A stretch of 64,000 nucleotides of DNA from Callorhinchus milii (GCF_018977255.1 NW_024704755.1:8866001-8930000), one strand, 5' to 3'. Counted from the first letter of the stretch, positions 22,515 through 59,954 are shown. Notes: generated by a model from the sequence alone, not told the origin. Program-made: numbers and translations.

Positions 22515-22636
22515 TTATTCTGTCTTGCGTGCCCATTGCATGTCATCAGTCCTTGGCTTGTGTCCGGTTAGGTTTTCTATCAGGTATTCAGTTTTCTGCC
22601 AAAATCCTAACCTAGCCAGCGGGTAATTCAGCCATC
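22515..22636 (-). CDS. PEDS1: PEDS1/TMEM189-like exon 6 (terminal coding exon)
   Basis: ctgcag|GATGGCTG; 122 nt to TAA; encodes (G)WLNYPLARLGFWQKTEYLIENLTGHKPRTDDMQWARKTE*. Confidence 0.96.
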
Positions 22637-24784
22637 CTGCAGCACAATAAACAGAAGTCATATGTGTTATACAGTGCAATACAATCATCATAACCAACCT
22701 TCAAAGTGTCCTGTGTAACTACAATCCAATCCCTTTAACAGATGCAGTGCACTTGCCCTTCACAGTTTTATGTTACTCTAACCCTGTGTTGTTTCACAAT
22801 GTTAAGCTGTCTATCACACAGCAAATTTTATTCCACTTTAATAAAGAGAAATTGAAATTGTAAAACTCTAAATTAAAGTGATTGATGGGAGCAAGCTGGG
22901 AGGGACTGCTGTGTCTTAGTATATTTATTGATGTTCATGGGGTGGTTTGGTAGTGCAAGGTGACAGGTACATTAGGAGTGTATTGAAAGGTGAATTGAAA
23001 TTAAAGGAATTCACTAACTTTAGTCAATACACCAGAAATACCAGAGTACTGCCACGATGGGTTAAATTGAGATTCAAGGGCCCTGACCTGTGAGCCTGGT
23101 GCCTCCGATATGTTTTGTTTAAACTCGAAGATAAAGACCATGTGTTTTTCAAGGGCAGGTGCAACAATTATAATTTCCATTCTGTTGAAAATGCAAGTTT
23201 ATTCTCCCAGTCTGATCAATTTCCTGAGGTCTTTGGGAAATAGCGGTCACTCTTCTCAAGACCTATGAGAAAATCGCAGCTTTTTATTTGCAACTCCACA
23301 AGTTACATGATAAAGTTGTTGAACACAACCGTGGAAATTGCGAAACTTTGATATACAGTGGGCAGATTAAATTGGATCACTTCGACTCACAAATAACTGC
23401 AGGGTCTATCTAGAATCTTAATTAGTATTGTGACAGGAATGGTACTTTACTATCAGTGCCTTGGAATGACTTATCCTCCTGAGTTGTGCAAGAACAGAAA
23501 CCTGTTTGAATTTTTTTTCTAAAAATATATTTTATATACACAGCAGCTAAACTGAGCTAAGAACATCTTCAAAATGTGTTTATCATGTTAAATGATAACG
23601 ATAAAAGTTAATGATGGGAGCATGTGCCACATCAATGCCTTATTGATCCTTGTGCCCATTTTTCTCATTTCTTACTATTTTTGTTTTACTCATAACTATT
23701 TATTACTCTTGACAATGGATTATTAATAACACAACGTGGGGAGTGTTGCTTACTGAGAAGTGCAAACAAAATTCCCCAGAGAAAAGAGAGCTGTTAGGCC
23801 ACATTCTCCCTTCAAACAGATGCTCTCCCCTGTGGTTTATTCCTAAATAGACTCATCGTTGGTGTGCTACAAAACAACTCATCATTTTTTCCGATGATTG
23901 TTTCAGCCCCTGCCTTCCTAGACATAGAGGTTGCTGAAATTGGGTGTTATTTCCTTGTATGTCTGGGCCCAAGCTTTCCACTACCAATTTGATCACGCAC
24001 CAGAACTGGAGGTGGAGCACAGAGGGGATTTGGCATCTTGGTAAGAGAATATTCAATCCCCAACGGTCCTTGTGGCAGGGTGAATGGCTACTTAAGGTTG
24101 TGGTCATTTTTCTATTTCCTGTCTGTTAATGGGGTGTTATTACAGGATTCGCATTTCCCTCCGGGCAAGGATGTGCTGAAACGGATGCGCTTATCAGGTG
24201 GACTGGAGAGACTTGGGATGTCCTCCAGATGTGAAAGGTTCGATATAATTGCAATTTATTGTTGTTGTTGGACAAAAGATGATGGATTATGCAGGTGTTA
24301 CACACTTGTATGCATAAGAGTTTTGTCCTAAACCAACCTAGATTTCAGTAACAGCTCAAACCACCTTGGTTTATGAAAAATTGCTTAACTTAGATGGATA
24401 GAAAGGGATTGGCTCTCTGGTGGATCATTCCTCTCCCTGCTGACAGTTAAATTGCACTGCTGTTGGCTATTGGGACAAAATGATTGCCCTTTGAGTCTCA
24501 GAACTACAGGTCTTGGGTTGGGATGCATTCTTGGACTGAAGTCTTCACCCCACAGGAAGCAATTAAGTACCTTGCAGCATGCAATCTCTCCCACAAATTT
24601 CACAAATCTAAAAAAGTACAGTGATGCCACGGAACTCTCCCAAGAGTACACTAAGGGTTGAGTTCTCTTTAACAACTATAATTAAAAAGAATGAAGTGCT
24701 GTGAGTGAACTCTGTAATTGTTCCTCCAGGTCTCATATCAACATGCTGCAACAAAGCCAAAGTCCATCCATCAATGCTCTGAGA

Positions 24785-24930
24785 TATTAACATTAATACA
24801 TAGTATTAACATTAATACTGTATTATTAACATTAATACTCCACATGAACATGCAGCATTAACATTAATACTCCATATTAATACTAATCACAATAACATCC
24901 AGCATTAACATTAATACTCCACATTAACTA
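24785..24930. repeat. AT-rich minisatellite, core attaacattaatac, unit about 20 bp
   Basis: Five exact copies of attaacattaatac plus partial copies, in PEDS1-like intron 5. Confidence 0.9.
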
Positions 24931-25602
24931 ATGAAATCATCCTAGTTTTGGATAAAATTCACGATATGTTCCCGTCATGGATTAGGTGTTAGGAGTAATC
25001 GGCCAGAGTCAGATTGTTGTTTTTGACCAAGGTGGCAGGATGATAACGCACACTCTTGGGACTCCAAAATCTGGGCTCTTATTAACCTGCGCTTAATGCT
25101 CTTGGAATTAAGTAAGCAGGTTGCATCCCTCCATGGAGAATTCCATCCCAGAAATGGGGAAATTTCCATGTGCAGTGGTACATATGTTGAAATCTCAATT
25201 TGGTTTGAATACTCTCAAGCATGGCAATAGGTTTCTGCATGTGTCAGTCACCAACCTGATAGGACTAATTGATAGTAAGGATGCTACTACATCAGGCCTT
25301 TTGGTTAAAGCAAAGGAGTGGGGAGAATAAAATCAGCCAGCATTTCTTTCCCATTAATCAGTGAGTCCACGAAAAAGAATGTATATGTGGACAGTTTCAA
25401 GCTTAGCTGGAACCACACTAATGATCAAACGGCACAAAGTTTGTAACTAAAGTTATGAGTATCATTACACTGGATCTGTTTTTTAAGAATGTGGATTTGA
25501 AGGACTGAACATTGACCGCTTTAGTGTACGGTGGGGGCTTAAGTGTTCCTGAGGATAACTCACAATTTGTTACCGATAACATTCACAATTGGCTCTTCCT
25601 AC

Positions 25603-25815
25603 CTGTTGTAATGCAGAAGTAGGTTTCGTGTGGCGACACGTGATGGATGCGGTGATGCTTTCTGGGCAGGATGACATGCAGATCCTGCAGTATAATGACC
25701 CAACGCGGCAATCCAAAGTACGTGTGAGACCACTTATGGATCTGATTCGTCAGGGTCACAGCTATGGCTAAACTGAACACGTAACAAGCCCAGGGATAGC
25801 CTTCACAGGTAACCA
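25603..25815 (-). CDS. PEDS1: PEDS1/TMEM189-like exon 5
   Basis: ttgcag|TGGTTACC...ACAACAG|gtagga; 213 nt; carries the QIHKWSH and [11 protein letters not shown]is boxes. Confidence 0.97.
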
Positions 25816-26185
25816 CTGCAAAGAGAAATAAACAATCAAGTGATTAGACTTGTAATAAAATGCACAGCTCCATCCGAGTGTCCAAGGTTGCCTCTGTTTA
25901 TTTGCCAGTTGCTAGTTTTCTCATTGTGGACAAAATACACTTTCTCGCAGCTATTGAGCTTCAAGAAAAGGAGGTTTTGCCAGAAACTCAATCCATTTAA
26001 TTAGCTGCTTGTGAATGCCAAATCTGGCAACAACGTATACGGTTAGTTAAGTTTATGACGAACAGAATGGTCCTTTTAACAAGTACAGATGCACAGAGCC
26101 CCGTAAAAATACTCATAAAATCCAACAGGATGCTTCAAAACTATTTGTAAATTGTACAGGATTTCCGCTAAGCTTTAAACGAGTA

Positions 26186-57949: not shown

Positions 57950-58278
57950 GTCAGCTTGGCTCACTTGGCTCATTTTGATAACACACTCTCACCTCCAAGT
58001 CAGAAAGTTGTGGGTTCAAGCTTCAATTCAGGATTTTGAACTTGTTCTAGTCTAGGCTGACACTCCAGTGCTGAGGTGCACAACACTGTCAGAGCTGCCA
58101 ATCTTTCGTTGAGACATTAAATCAAAATCCCAAATGTCTGTTCGGGTGGTTGTTAAAGATCGCAATAGTATTATTCAAAAAGAGAAGGGCGTTCCTTCTG
58201 GTGTCCTAGCCAACAATCCCTTCACTTTGCGAAGTTCTCCTGAATTGAAAGGCGTTATATCAAATGCAAGGATTATGA
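57950..58278 (+). mobile_element. Old SacSINE1-like DeuSINE
   Basis: Head with B box gggttcaagc, ggctgacactccagtgc, Deu-like core, L2-type tail. Confidence 0.8.
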
Positions 58279-59264
58279 ACATTAGAATATCCTTGGCCTC
58301 GATTGTAATAAATTAGCCAGGGTTTCTGCTCCCGATTGCTGTGAAGTGACAGGGTGCCCGAAAGTGCACACCTAGAGTTTGGGTGAGAGCAAGACCTTGC
58401 TGGCGTGACTGTGGTGCCTTGCCAAGTGGAAAACCGGTTTTGCAGGTCCTCAATTCGGATTGAATCTTATAGCGTGTGGTTCTGTTACCCAGGATTTCAG
58501 TTGCCTTTTGTCGATTTACTCTCCTAGAGTGAACCTCGCCATTTGCTTCCATTCACACCATTTCCCTCTTATACTCTTTTGGAGCATTTACTTGCTCAAG
58601 CGCACAGCAATTTCATTCCTGCTTGTCCTGCAAGAGTTTATTTTTTTAAAAAAGCTATTGCCTTCCCCTTTAATACCTGTGTTCATATATCCCCAGATTC
58701 CCTTTTCTTATTTTGAGTCTCAATCTCTGCATTTACTTAATCTACAGAGAAATCCAATCCTCCAGGGTCTTGTCACGTGACTTTAGTTTTTCATCCATTT
58801 CTTTGTGCAATAGTTTGAGCTCCTCCCATTACTTACACTCTTTCACAGACAGAGTCTGTCTGGCTTTCTCTTATTTTGTCCTTTGCTCTCCAGAACAGAA
58901 TCTGTGCAGTTTGCGTTCCTTGCTTGGCCATGGAACTCCTCATTTTTATAAAAGAACTATTCTATTAAATTCCTCTTGTCAACTTCAATTCAGAGTTACT
59001 GCACATTACTCAACTCCTGTACAGTTTTGCTAAAATAAGGGATTTTAAAATGATACCAAGTGACTGCTCTTGGCTTCTCCTTTGTTAAATCTAGGCTTAT
59101 TTTAGAATGATAATCAATTCAGCCGGTACGATGATTTTGGTAAAAAAATGATTTCGTCCCAGGTCTGACGCTTTTTACGTTTAAAAACAGCAAAGTGTAA
59201 ATAGTTTGATGATAGATTAGTTTTGTAAATTAATTCCTGCTGATTACAACAAGTCTATGCAATT

Positions 59265-59362
59265 AATAATATTGATAATCCTTGCAGTTGATGCAGCGCC
59301 TTATCACATCTTCGAGACGTCTCAAAGCGCTTCACAGAATATACTGTAAAGTGAATCGACTG
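59265..59362 (-). mobile_element. 5'-truncated SINE 3' end
   Basis: Tail motif. Confidence 0.85.
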
Positions 59363-59834
59363 CACCTTTTGTATACCATCCTCCCAGGAAACATTATTAC
59401 ATTGACAAGTTTCCCCCTATTCCCCCATTTATTCCGTTTGCTTCACTGTACAAGTATTTGTAAAACTTCCTGTCTTTGTTATCGAAGTCACTGACTGATT
59501 TTTCACCCCACTCTTAGTAGAACAGAAATACTTTGTGATGAAACCACTTCAGTCAGTATTTTATTTGGTTCTGAGCTTAGCTGAAGATAACTCTCTGACC
59601 AACTAGAAATTAGTTGCGTGACGACTTGTCAGTGACTGCCATTTGCCCAGGCGAGGAAACAAAAGACCCTGTTAGGGCTGTTGCCCATCTCTCTGTGTGA
59701 ACCCTCGTTCTGTCACTGCTATTCCAGCCCAAATTCACACTGCTTCCAGTATTGTCTGCCCAACAACCCGATTGAAATGATTCTTGCACAATAACTTGTC
59801 ACACCCCACTCTGCCCAACACGCTTAATACTCAC

Positions 59835-59954
59835 AGATGGCCACTATTAATTTGAACATGTGATCCATGGAAAAATGCTGCATCAAGAAAAATGAGTTGA
59901 CCATCACTAGACATGTGCACAGGATGACGCAGATCCATTCTTGTAATCGTTTAC
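59835..59954 (-). CDS. PEDS1: PEDS1/TMEM189-like exon 2
   Basis: cccag|GTAAACGA...GCCATCT|gtgagt; 120 nt, phase 1/1; encodes (G)KRLQEWICVILCTCLVMVNSFFLMQHFSMDHMFKLIVAI. Not present in the ORF track. Confidence 0.93.

What the first reader, a model, noticed from the sequence alone, without database searches (positions are those of the whole stretch)
22515..59954. Probable second plasmalogen desaturase: a PEDS1/TMEM189 paralog beside C16orf78 instead of UBE2V1
Seen: intact exons 2-6 with all His motifs (VHWG, EHH, TRHD, QIHKWSH, KHHRIHH, PHE), but divergent membrane segments ([51 protein letters not shown]). The downstream neighbour is C16orf78-like, and I recognised no UBE2V1 exon in the 22 kb downstream. 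Established: human PEDS1 is single copy at 20q13 directly upstream of UBE2V1; C16orf78 is at 16q12 between CBLN1 and ZNF423; 16q12 and 20q13 share paralog pairs (SALL1/SALL4, CBLN1/CBLN4); cartilaginous fish are rich in ether lipids. Inference: an ohnolog lost in mammals, possibly with a different substrate or tissue role in vinyl-ether lipid synthesis. Some teleosts have two peds1 genes, so the lineage may already be partly known.
Basis: partly seen in the sequence, partly recalled or inferred. Interest (0 to 1): 0.75.

Follow-up and report, generated by a model that had tools for sequence, protein, structure and literature searches.

The report
Ancient second plasmalogen desaturase of vertebrates
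This elephant shark gene is a spliced, intact second copy of the plasmalogen-making enzyme PEDS1, from a duplication older than the shark/bony-fish split; it likely does the same chemistry as the human enzyme, but its database model keeps an ancient front-end motif, possibly a degradation tag, that the mammalian proteins sampled lack.

Summary
The gene is real: five GT-AG exons match RefSeq Callorhinchus milii PEDS1-like protein exactly, three introns are spliced in 4 of 4 runs, and all 11 residues known to be needed for activity are present. The neighbour is C16orf78-like; no UBE2V1 exon is in the window. A second C. milii PEDS1 exists and groups with the UBE2V1-linked copies. The window gene sits in a separate clade (100/98) with sharks, rays, coelacanth, lungfish, ray-finned fishes and turtles, and is the ortholog of zebrafish peds1a (si:ch211-212o1.2). 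So the zebrafish a/b pair is older than the teleost duplication (p=0.004). Both zebrafish copies are reported as working PEDS1, so a new substrate is unlikely. Ohnolog origin is plausible, but synteny was not testable. New here: this clade keeps an N-terminal S-M-x-E-[DE]-D-P-N-x-N motif (39 of 43 proteins; 14 of 14 named invertebrates; 1 of 75 in the human-type clade) whose D-x-N-x-N core matches the SPSB/Gustavus ubiquitin-ligase binding pattern; untested, and encoded outside the window. The scan had not noted this gene before.

The parts
59835..59954 (-). PEDS1 paralog exon 2 (120 nt; first membrane helix)
   Evidence: AG/GT ends and identity to P0003; skipped in RefSeq isoform X2, P0002; joint to exon 3 not checked in reads
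36239..36330 (-). exon 3 (92 nt; second helix, H131 and D135 of P0003)
   Evidence: joint to exon 4 in 4 of 4 runs
33897..34041 (-). exon 4 (145 nt; F153, H156, H157, H166; third helix)
   Evidence: joints in 4 of 4 runs
25603..25815 (-). exon 5 (213 nt; fourth helix, H222, H226, H250, H253, H254)
   Evidence: 100% identical to named C. milii proteins; joints in 4 of 4 runs
22515..22636 (-). exon 6 coding part with TAA stop
21263..22514 (-). 3' untranslated region, minimum extent; it may reach about 20600
   Evidence: one spliced contig of run X4 runs from exon 3 to 21263; separate contigs cover 20698-21678; minus-strand AATAAA at 20543, 20593, 21862, 21887
20315..20465 (+). C16orf78-like (DUF4638) last exon with stop; convergent neighbour
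   Evidence: Pfam PF15472 E=5.2e-15
16927..17329 (+). C16orf78-like penultimate exon
   Evidence: weak DUF4638 hit E=0.038 at adjoining profile positions 183-214; joins in frame
15377..16201 (+). two further candidate exons of the C16orf78-like gene (15377-15478, 16060-16201)
   Evidence: AG/GT ends and in-frame join; no Pfam hit, so inferred

Best explanation
The window holds exons 2-6 of the elephant shark ortholog of zebrafish peds1a, one of two PEDS1 genes that date from before sharks and bony vertebrates split, and it likely encodes a working endoplasmic-reticulum di-iron desaturase that makes the same vinyl-ether bond as human PEDS1. Mechanism (inferred from the family and the zebrafish ortholog): four membrane helices place nine histidines, an aspartate and a phenylalanine on the cytosolic side to hold two irons and oxidise the 1-O-alkyl chain of plasmanyl-ethanolamine. 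History: one duplicate (clade A) lies beside UBE2V1 and is the copy found in mammals, birds, squamates and amphibians; the other (clade B, here beside C16orf78) survives in cartilaginous fish, ray-finned fish, coelacanth, lungfish and turtles; origin in a vertebrate genome doubling is likely but unproven. The two copies most likely differ in control rather than chemistry: clade B keeps an N-terminal motif shared with lamprey, amphioxus, molluscs, a brachiopod and arthropods, which nearly all clade A proteins lack. My best guess for it (about 1 in 4) is a docking site for SPSB/Gustavus ubiquitin-ligase adaptors that would set the enzyme's lifetime.
For: Shown: gene structure and splicing. All 11 positions reported as needed in mouse PEDS1 (PMC8960569) map to identical residues in P0003. 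Clade B support 100/98 on full sequences and 100/96 on the 229-residue core without the N-terminus. AU tests reject the two C. milii copies as one clade (p=3.7e-6), teleost A plus teleost B (p=0.004), window plus clade A (p=0.004) and the two turtle copies (p=1.2e-6). Eleven named species have one protein of each clade. 6 of 6 PEDS1-UBE2V1 read-through models, one from a ray, are clade A. 7 of 8 proteins named si:ch211-212o1.2 score as clade B, the eighth being a truncated model of the window gene; the paper's supplement names peds1a as SI:CH211-212O1.2; its guide translates to a peptide found in 20 proteins, 19 of them clade B, and the peds1b guide to a peptide found only in a clade A protein. 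Both zebrafish paralogs are described as PEDS1 (PMC11362147 introduction, PMC9131029). Motif counts. AlphaFold model: four long helices, residues 1-48 below pLDDT 50. SPSB binding depends on D, N and N of D-x-N-x-N (PMC2911665 Table I; bioRxiv 10.64898/2026.06.11.731453).
Against: No activity data for this protein; the zebrafish result is taken from a later paper and a review, not from the 2019 primary paper. The zebrafish protein itself was not in hand; orthology rests on the shared gene name and a six-residue guide translation. Clade A is not strongly supported as one group (84/84 with hagfish inside; not recovered, not rejected, p=0.42). The shark copy has 16 changes not shared with three elasmobranchs and coelacanth, 8 of them in residues 168-224. 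Flanking synteny untested. Losses are read from search lists capped at 120 rows of 90% clusters, not from genomes; no named crocodilian, tuatara or monotreme protein appeared. The motif lies in exon 1, outside the window, and in this species its S-M part is changed; more than D-x-N-x-N is conserved (S, M, E, P), and no paper I read tests proline at the second position.
Confidence: 0.8

Rival explanations
1. The copy has shifted substrate, at least in chimaeras, for example desaturating neutral alkyl-glycerolipids or other head groups, and so helps make the vinyl-ether lipids of chimaera liver oil.
For: Chimaera monstrosa liver oil held about 50 ug alkenyl lipid per mg and shark liver oil none (PMC9029064, passages). 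8 of 16 window-only changes lie in helices 3-4 and their loop, 57 of 229 positions. The window protein had more unique changes than the elasmobranch in 12 of 12 overlapping comparisons, while the clade A copy of the same species had fewer in 6 of 8.
Against: Only 2 of those 12 non-independent comparisons reach p<0.05. All 11 required residues are intact. The zebrafish ortholog is reported to work as PEDS1. The oil data are from other species and say nothing on which gene is responsible.
Confidence: 0.1
2. The pair arose by an old single-gene duplication and move, before jawed vertebrates diversified, not by genome doubling; C16orf78 is a chance neighbour.
For: Only one neighbour is visible in the window; no CBLN1 or other Pfam-recognised vertebrate gene among 126 open frames of 48 codons or more in 1-15400. 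A literature search for the 16q12/20q13 pairs gave 2 papers, seen as listings only, so the paralogon is recalled, not shown.
Against: The age fits the vertebrate doublings. Exon lengths 120/92/145/213/122 equal those I recall for human PEDS1, which points to a DNA-level duplicate. The human positions of C16orf78 (16q12) and PEDS1 (20q13) and the paralog pairs between them are recalled.
Confidence: 0.2
3. The N-terminal motif is functional but is not an SPSB site: it binds another partner, folds back on the enzyme, or marks a second start methionine.
For: M (31 of 32), E (31 of 32), P (31 of 32) and S (29 of 32) are nearly as constant as D, N and N in the rows tabulated (rows chosen for having D-x-N-x-N). 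Several database models start at the motif's methionine. No paper among the top 30 of 115 held both a PEDS1 and an SPSB term.
Against: The middle position of N-x-N varies freely (G, S, A, D, K, Y), as SPSB binding allows; one oyster protein has the same five residues as the phage loop that SPSB1 binds, and one unnamed protein has isoleucine in place of proline as in the canonical ligand. The segment is predicted disordered and, by topology, cytosolic (inference).
Confidence: 0.6
4. It is the only PEDS1 of this genome, moved from UBE2V1, or a recent shark-specific or teleost-type duplicate.
For: RefSeq gives it the plain name 'plasmanylethanolamine desaturase'; zebrafish a/b names usually suggest the teleost doubling (recalled).
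Against: Second C. milii protein P0195, 66% identical over the core, groups with elasmobranch clade A at 98/92-99/99; AU tests reject all three versions.
Confidence: 0.01

Closest known systems
Zebrafish peds1a (si:ch211-212o1.2, ENSDARG00000011498)
   Same: Same clade by shared database name and guide translation; one of the two zebrafish paralogs reported as PEDS1 and knocked out together with peds1b (PMC11362147).
   Different: The papers read treat the two copies as a zebrafish exception (PMC9131029) and give no age or separate role; here the pair is shown to predate the shark/bony-fish split. The shark protein has its own changes in helices 3-4.
Human/mouse PEDS1 (TMEM189, Kua; EC 1.14.19.77; PF10520), ortholog of zebrafish peds1b and C. 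milii P0195
   Same: All 11 required residues; 66% core identity to a primate protein; four-helix model.
   Different: Different clade and neighbour (UBE2V1, with read-through models only in this clade); lacks the N-terminal D-x-N-x-N motif in 74 of 75 proteins with a readable N-terminus.
SPSB1/2/4 and Gustavus ligands (iNOS, VASA, Par-4, phage T7 gp4 loop)
   Same: D-x-N-x-N in a predicted disordered N-terminal stretch, with the middle residue variable.
   Different: Proline at position 2 and a conserved S-M-x-E-[DE] lead-in not described for these ligands in the passages read; binding untested.

Membership tests
PEDS1/CarF plasmanylethanolamine desaturases | PF10520 lipid desaturase domain | tested here: met
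   E=8.7e-71, profile 1-175 of 175
PEDS1/CarF plasmanylethanolamine desaturases | Eight essential histidines shared with FAD4 | tested here: met
   H131, H156, H157, H222, H226, H250, H253, H254 of P0003
PEDS1/CarF plasmanylethanolamine desaturases | Ninth histidine that separates PEDS1 from FAD4 (mouse H131) | tested here: met
   H166 of P0003
PEDS1/CarF plasmanylethanolamine desaturases | Essential aspartate (mouse D100) and phenylalanine (mouse F118) | tested here: met
   D135 and F153
PEDS1/CarF plasmanylethanolamine desaturases | Four membrane helices | tested here: met
   Predicted helices 76-102, 106-137, 168-192, 202-224; mean pLDDT 71; best solved match Scs7p hydroxylase, weak, E=0.47
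PEDS1/CarF plasmanylethanolamine desaturases | Forms the 1-O-alk-1'-enyl bond | not testable with these tools
   Reported for both zebrafish paralogs, not for this protein
UBE2V1-linked PEDS1 (human-type, clade A) | Groups with tetrapod PEDS1 | tested here: not met
   AU p=0.004
UBE2V1-linked PEDS1 (human-type, clade A) | UBE2V1 directly downstream | tested here: not met
   No UBE2V1 hit better than E=1.0 in the window; DUF4638 gene 2 kb past the stop
peds1a / si:ch211-212o1.2 clade (clade B) | One supported clade with proteins of that name | tested here: met
   100/98 and 100/96; SH-aLRT 98 with 25 rows
Vertebrate ohnolog pair (16q12 / 20q13 regions) | Duplication predates jawed-vertebrate radiation | tested here: met
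   Both copies in chimaera, shark, coelacanth, lungfish, turtle and teleosts
Vertebrate ohnolog pair (16q12 / 20q13 regions) | Paralogous flanking genes at both loci | not testable with these tools
   No genome held; only C16orf78-like visible
Vertebrate ohnolog pair (16q12 / 20q13 regions) | Placement relative to lamprey and hagfish (first or second doubling) | tested here: inconclusive
   Lamprey with B 91/74 on full sequence, with hagfish 91/91 on the core; AU p 0.40-0.41 for three alternatives
SPSB/Gustavus degron | D-x-N-x-N in an exposed cytosolic segment | tested here: met
   D41-N43-N45 of database model P0003, pLDDT<50; cytosolic side inferred; outside the window
SPSB/Gustavus degron | Binds an SPSB SPRY domain and confers turnover | not testable with these tools

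The most novel reading that the evidence does not exclude
Ancestral animal PEDS1 carries an SPSB/Gustavus degron that lets a Cullin-5 ligase control plasmalogen synthesis. After the vertebrate duplication one copy kept it (peds1a lineage; in lungfish the opposite copy) and the other lost it; mammals, birds, squamates and amphibians then kept only the untagged copy, so humans lost both a gene and a layer of control that flies, molluscs, fish and turtles still have.
Probability: 0.2. Interest if true: 0.72.

Novelty: new member of a known kind. Interest (0 to 1): 0.42.

Why it matters
It re-dates the zebrafish peds1a/peds1b pair: only peds1b is the ortholog of human PEDS1, and peds1a stands for a lineage with no counterpart among the mammalian proteins sampled. 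That bears on how the double-knockout zebrafish is read as a model of human plasmalogen loss and makes single knockouts informative. The motif gives a cheap test (one peptide, three point changes) of a possible control on plasmalogen synthesis. Without it, the finding is an ordinary retained duplicate of a known enzyme.

Tried and rejected
Whole-genome search for the second copy and for CBLN1/ZNF423: no genome held; the second copy was found by protein search, the flanks stay open. Listing of cluster members could not be made, so species hidden behind a representative (for example the 25 members of the turtle cluster P0124) are unknown. No run is on record as RNA and none names a tissue, so a tissue role was not tested; the C16orf78-like exon joint was not among the joints shown and no conclusion is drawn. 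Pfam on 126 open frames in 1-15400 gave one sub-threshold bacterial hit, taken as chance. First attempt at the C16orf78-like join was one base off and was corrected. The 69-row tree finished only in quick mode; AU tests used LG+G4, not the mixture model. Faster evolution of the shark copy is not established (2 of 12 overlapping tests). Fold search gave nothing at E<=0.001. A third paralog next to MOB3A/MKNK2 was considered from gar model P0021 and rejected: its 71-residue piece is identical to gar clade B. Among 46 distant representatives with a long N-terminus, 7 had D-x-N-x-N, all of them animal-like by sequence. Literature: ten searches; among the rows listed I found no paper on the age of the pair, on this motif, or with '212o1.2' in its main text; the library lacks most subscription papers, and the search was swamped by an unrelated term. 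Earlier scan notes: none on this gene.
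Full report
Observation. Five minus-strand exons of 120, 92, 145, 213 and 122 nt, with AG and GT ends, join to one open frame that equals residues 78-306 of P0003. Exon 5 is 100% identical to proteins named 'plasmanylethanolamine desaturase [Callorhinchus milii]' by RefSeq and 'Si:ch211-212o1.2' by UniRef, so the window is elephant shark and the gene is already annotated. 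Exon 1 was not found in the window. Contigs of 4 of 4 runs, from 2 studies, join exons 3-4, 4-5 and 5-6 at the predicted places; these runs are only guessed to be RNA and give no tissue. The downstream neighbour is on the other strand: its last exon hits DUF4638 at E=5.2e-15 and three more exons join in frame; that DUF4638 is the C16orf78 family is recalled. UBE2V1 parts cut from four read-through models found nothing better than E=1.0 in the window (a fifth query was cut wrongly, still held PEDS1 sequence, and its UBE2V1 part also found nothing).

Two copies, and which one this is. A search with a shark protein of the other type returned a second C. milii protein, P0195, named 'Plasmanylethanolamine desaturase 1', 66% identical to the window protein over the 229-residue core. 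Trees of 69 and 34 selected proteins (chosen from 193 and 216 fetched, for taxon spread and completeness) put the window protein with sharks and rays inside a clade B (100/98 full length; 100/96 core only) that also holds coelacanth, lungfish, turtles, bowfin, gar, sturgeons and teleosts. P0195 groups with a different set of shark and skate proteins. AU tests on the core (LG+G4) reject: the two C. milii copies as a clade (p=3.7e-6), teleost A plus teleost B (p=0.004), the window protein inside clade A (p=0.004), the two turtle copies as a clade (p=1.2e-6). Clade A itself is weakly supported and neither shown nor rejected as one group (p=0.42), and the place of lamprey and hagfish is open (p 0.40-0.41), so first versus second genome doubling cannot be told. 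Scoring the 216 proteins against two profiles (27 of them were the seeds; 18 stayed unassigned) gave one protein of each clade in 11 named species, and clade A for 6 of 6 PEDS1-UBE2V1 read-through models, including a ray. Named tetrapod proteins in clade B: mammals 0 of 20, birds 0 of 18, squamates 0 of 15, amphibians 0 of 8, turtles 3 of 9. These are representatives of 90% clusters from lists capped at 120 rows; members could not be listed, so the losses are likely, not shown.

What is known. Supplementary Table 1 of PMC11362147 (read whole) lists peds1a as ENSDARG00000011498 with a guide named SI:CH211-212O1.2, and peds1b with a guide named TMEM189. The peds1a guide translates to a peptide found in 20 fetched proteins, 19 of them clade B; the peds1b guide to one found only in a clade A minnow protein. 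7 of 8 proteins named si:ch211-212o1.2 score as clade B; the eighth is a truncated model of the window gene. So the window gene is the ortholog of zebrafish peds1a. Passages of PMC11362147 say the two zebrafish paralogs encode PEDS1 and describe their double knockout; passages of the review PMC9131029 say two zebrafish homologues at distinct loci were tested and that zebrafish homologues complement a carF mutant, and call the two copies an exception. I did not see the 2019 primary paper or its supplement, which may hold a tree and per-paralog data bearing on this. PMC8960569 (parts 1-3 of 4) lists eight essential histidines, a ninth specific to PEDS1, D100 and F118; all 11 map to identical residues in P0003. 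An AlphaFold model shows four long helices and a low-confidence N-terminus; the best solved match is a weak one to the di-metal hydroxylase Scs7p (E=0.47). PMC13012113 (passages) does not treat vertebrate copies in its main text.

The 'divergent membrane segments'. The first is clade-typical: 2 window-only changes in 25 positions. Helices 3-4 and their loop carry 8 of the 16 window-only changes in 57 of 229 positions. The window protein had more unique changes than its elasmobranch ortholog in 12 of 12 overlapping comparisons, but only 2 reached p<0.05. Chimaera liver oil is reported to hold vinyl-ether lipid where shark liver oil has none (PMC9029064, passages), which keeps a chimaera-specific shift alive at about 0.1, no more.

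The alignment shows a motif, S-M-x-E-[DE]-D-P-N-x-N, 14-18 residues before the first conserved block. D-x-N-x-N is present there in 39 of 43 clade B proteins with a readable N-terminus (of 55), 14 of 14 named invertebrates (amphioxus, brachiopod, molluscs, crustaceans, insects), 7 of 7 unnamed invertebrate-like proteins, lamprey but not hagfish, and 1 of 75 clade A proteins (of 120). These rows are related and include isoforms, so they are not independent events. The one clade A exception is lungfish, whose clade B copy has lost the motif, a reciprocal pattern. Clade B is thus the ancestral-like copy at the N-terminus. In P0003 the core is D41-N43-N45 with the S-M lead-in changed; it is encoded by exon 1, outside the window, and rests on the RefSeq model. 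SPSB1/2/4 and Gustavus bind D-x-N-x-N: in the iNOS peptide, changing D or either outer N cuts affinity more than 1000-fold, the second residue is tolerant and the middle one costs about 60-fold (PMC2911665, passages with Table I); SPSB1 binds a DQNGN loop and degrades proteins with the motif (bioRxiv 10.64898/2026.06.11.731453, passages); PMC2923778 (passages) gives the stricter consensus with three asparagines. One oyster PEDS1 has the DQNGN form and one unnamed protein has isoleucine at position 2. Against: S, M, E and P are nearly as constant as D, N and N, proline at position 2 is untested in what I read, and no listed paper links the two families (top 30 of 115). I put the degron at about 1 in 4 and the whole story built on it at 0.2.

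Verdict. Observation confirmed. It is a true, expressed, old paralog and a member of the PEDS1 family by every sequence feature tested; it is not the human-type ortholog. The lineage is already named and, by report, enzymatically ordinary. What I did not find in print is its age, its survival in turtles, and the lost N-terminal motif. Ohnolog origin is likely from the age and from recalled human gene positions, but was not testable here.

Noticed in passing
window 20463-20700: The C16orf78-like stop (20465, AATAAA at 20563) and the possible far end of the PEDS1-paralog 3' region (minus-strand AATAAA at 20543 and 20593; contigs down to 20540-20698) nearly touch, so the two transcripts may overlap tail to tail.
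   Followed up: no
P0074 and P0153 (lungfish): Lungfish keeps the N-terminal motif on its clade A copy and has lost it from clade B, the reverse of other jawed vertebrates.
   Followed up: partly
P0124, P0162, P0189 (turtles): Turtles of both major groups keep the clade B gene, the only tetrapods seen with it.
   Followed up: partly
P0021 (alligator gar model named MKNK2): A MOB3-MKNK2 chimeric model holds a 71-residue piece identical to gar clade B exon 5; probably an assembly or annotation artefact.
   Followed up: partly
window 36932 (minus), intron 2: UniRef model P0001 starts in an open frame inside intron 2; RefSeq isoform X2 (P0002) skips exon 2 and so lacks the first membrane helix. 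Neither form was checked in reads.
   Followed up: no
window 26186-27290, 32542-32685, 35215-35316, 37685-38141, 55889-56294: Dispersed repeat fragments (LINE/SINE-like by my reading) give the longest intronic open frames and very high contig depth.
   Followed up: no
window 16956-16997: A 21-nt tandem duplication lies inside the C16orf78-like coding exon and keeps the frame.
   Followed up: no
PMC9029064: Chimaera liver oil is reported to contain vinyl-ether lipids while shark liver oil does not; cause unknown.
   Followed up: no
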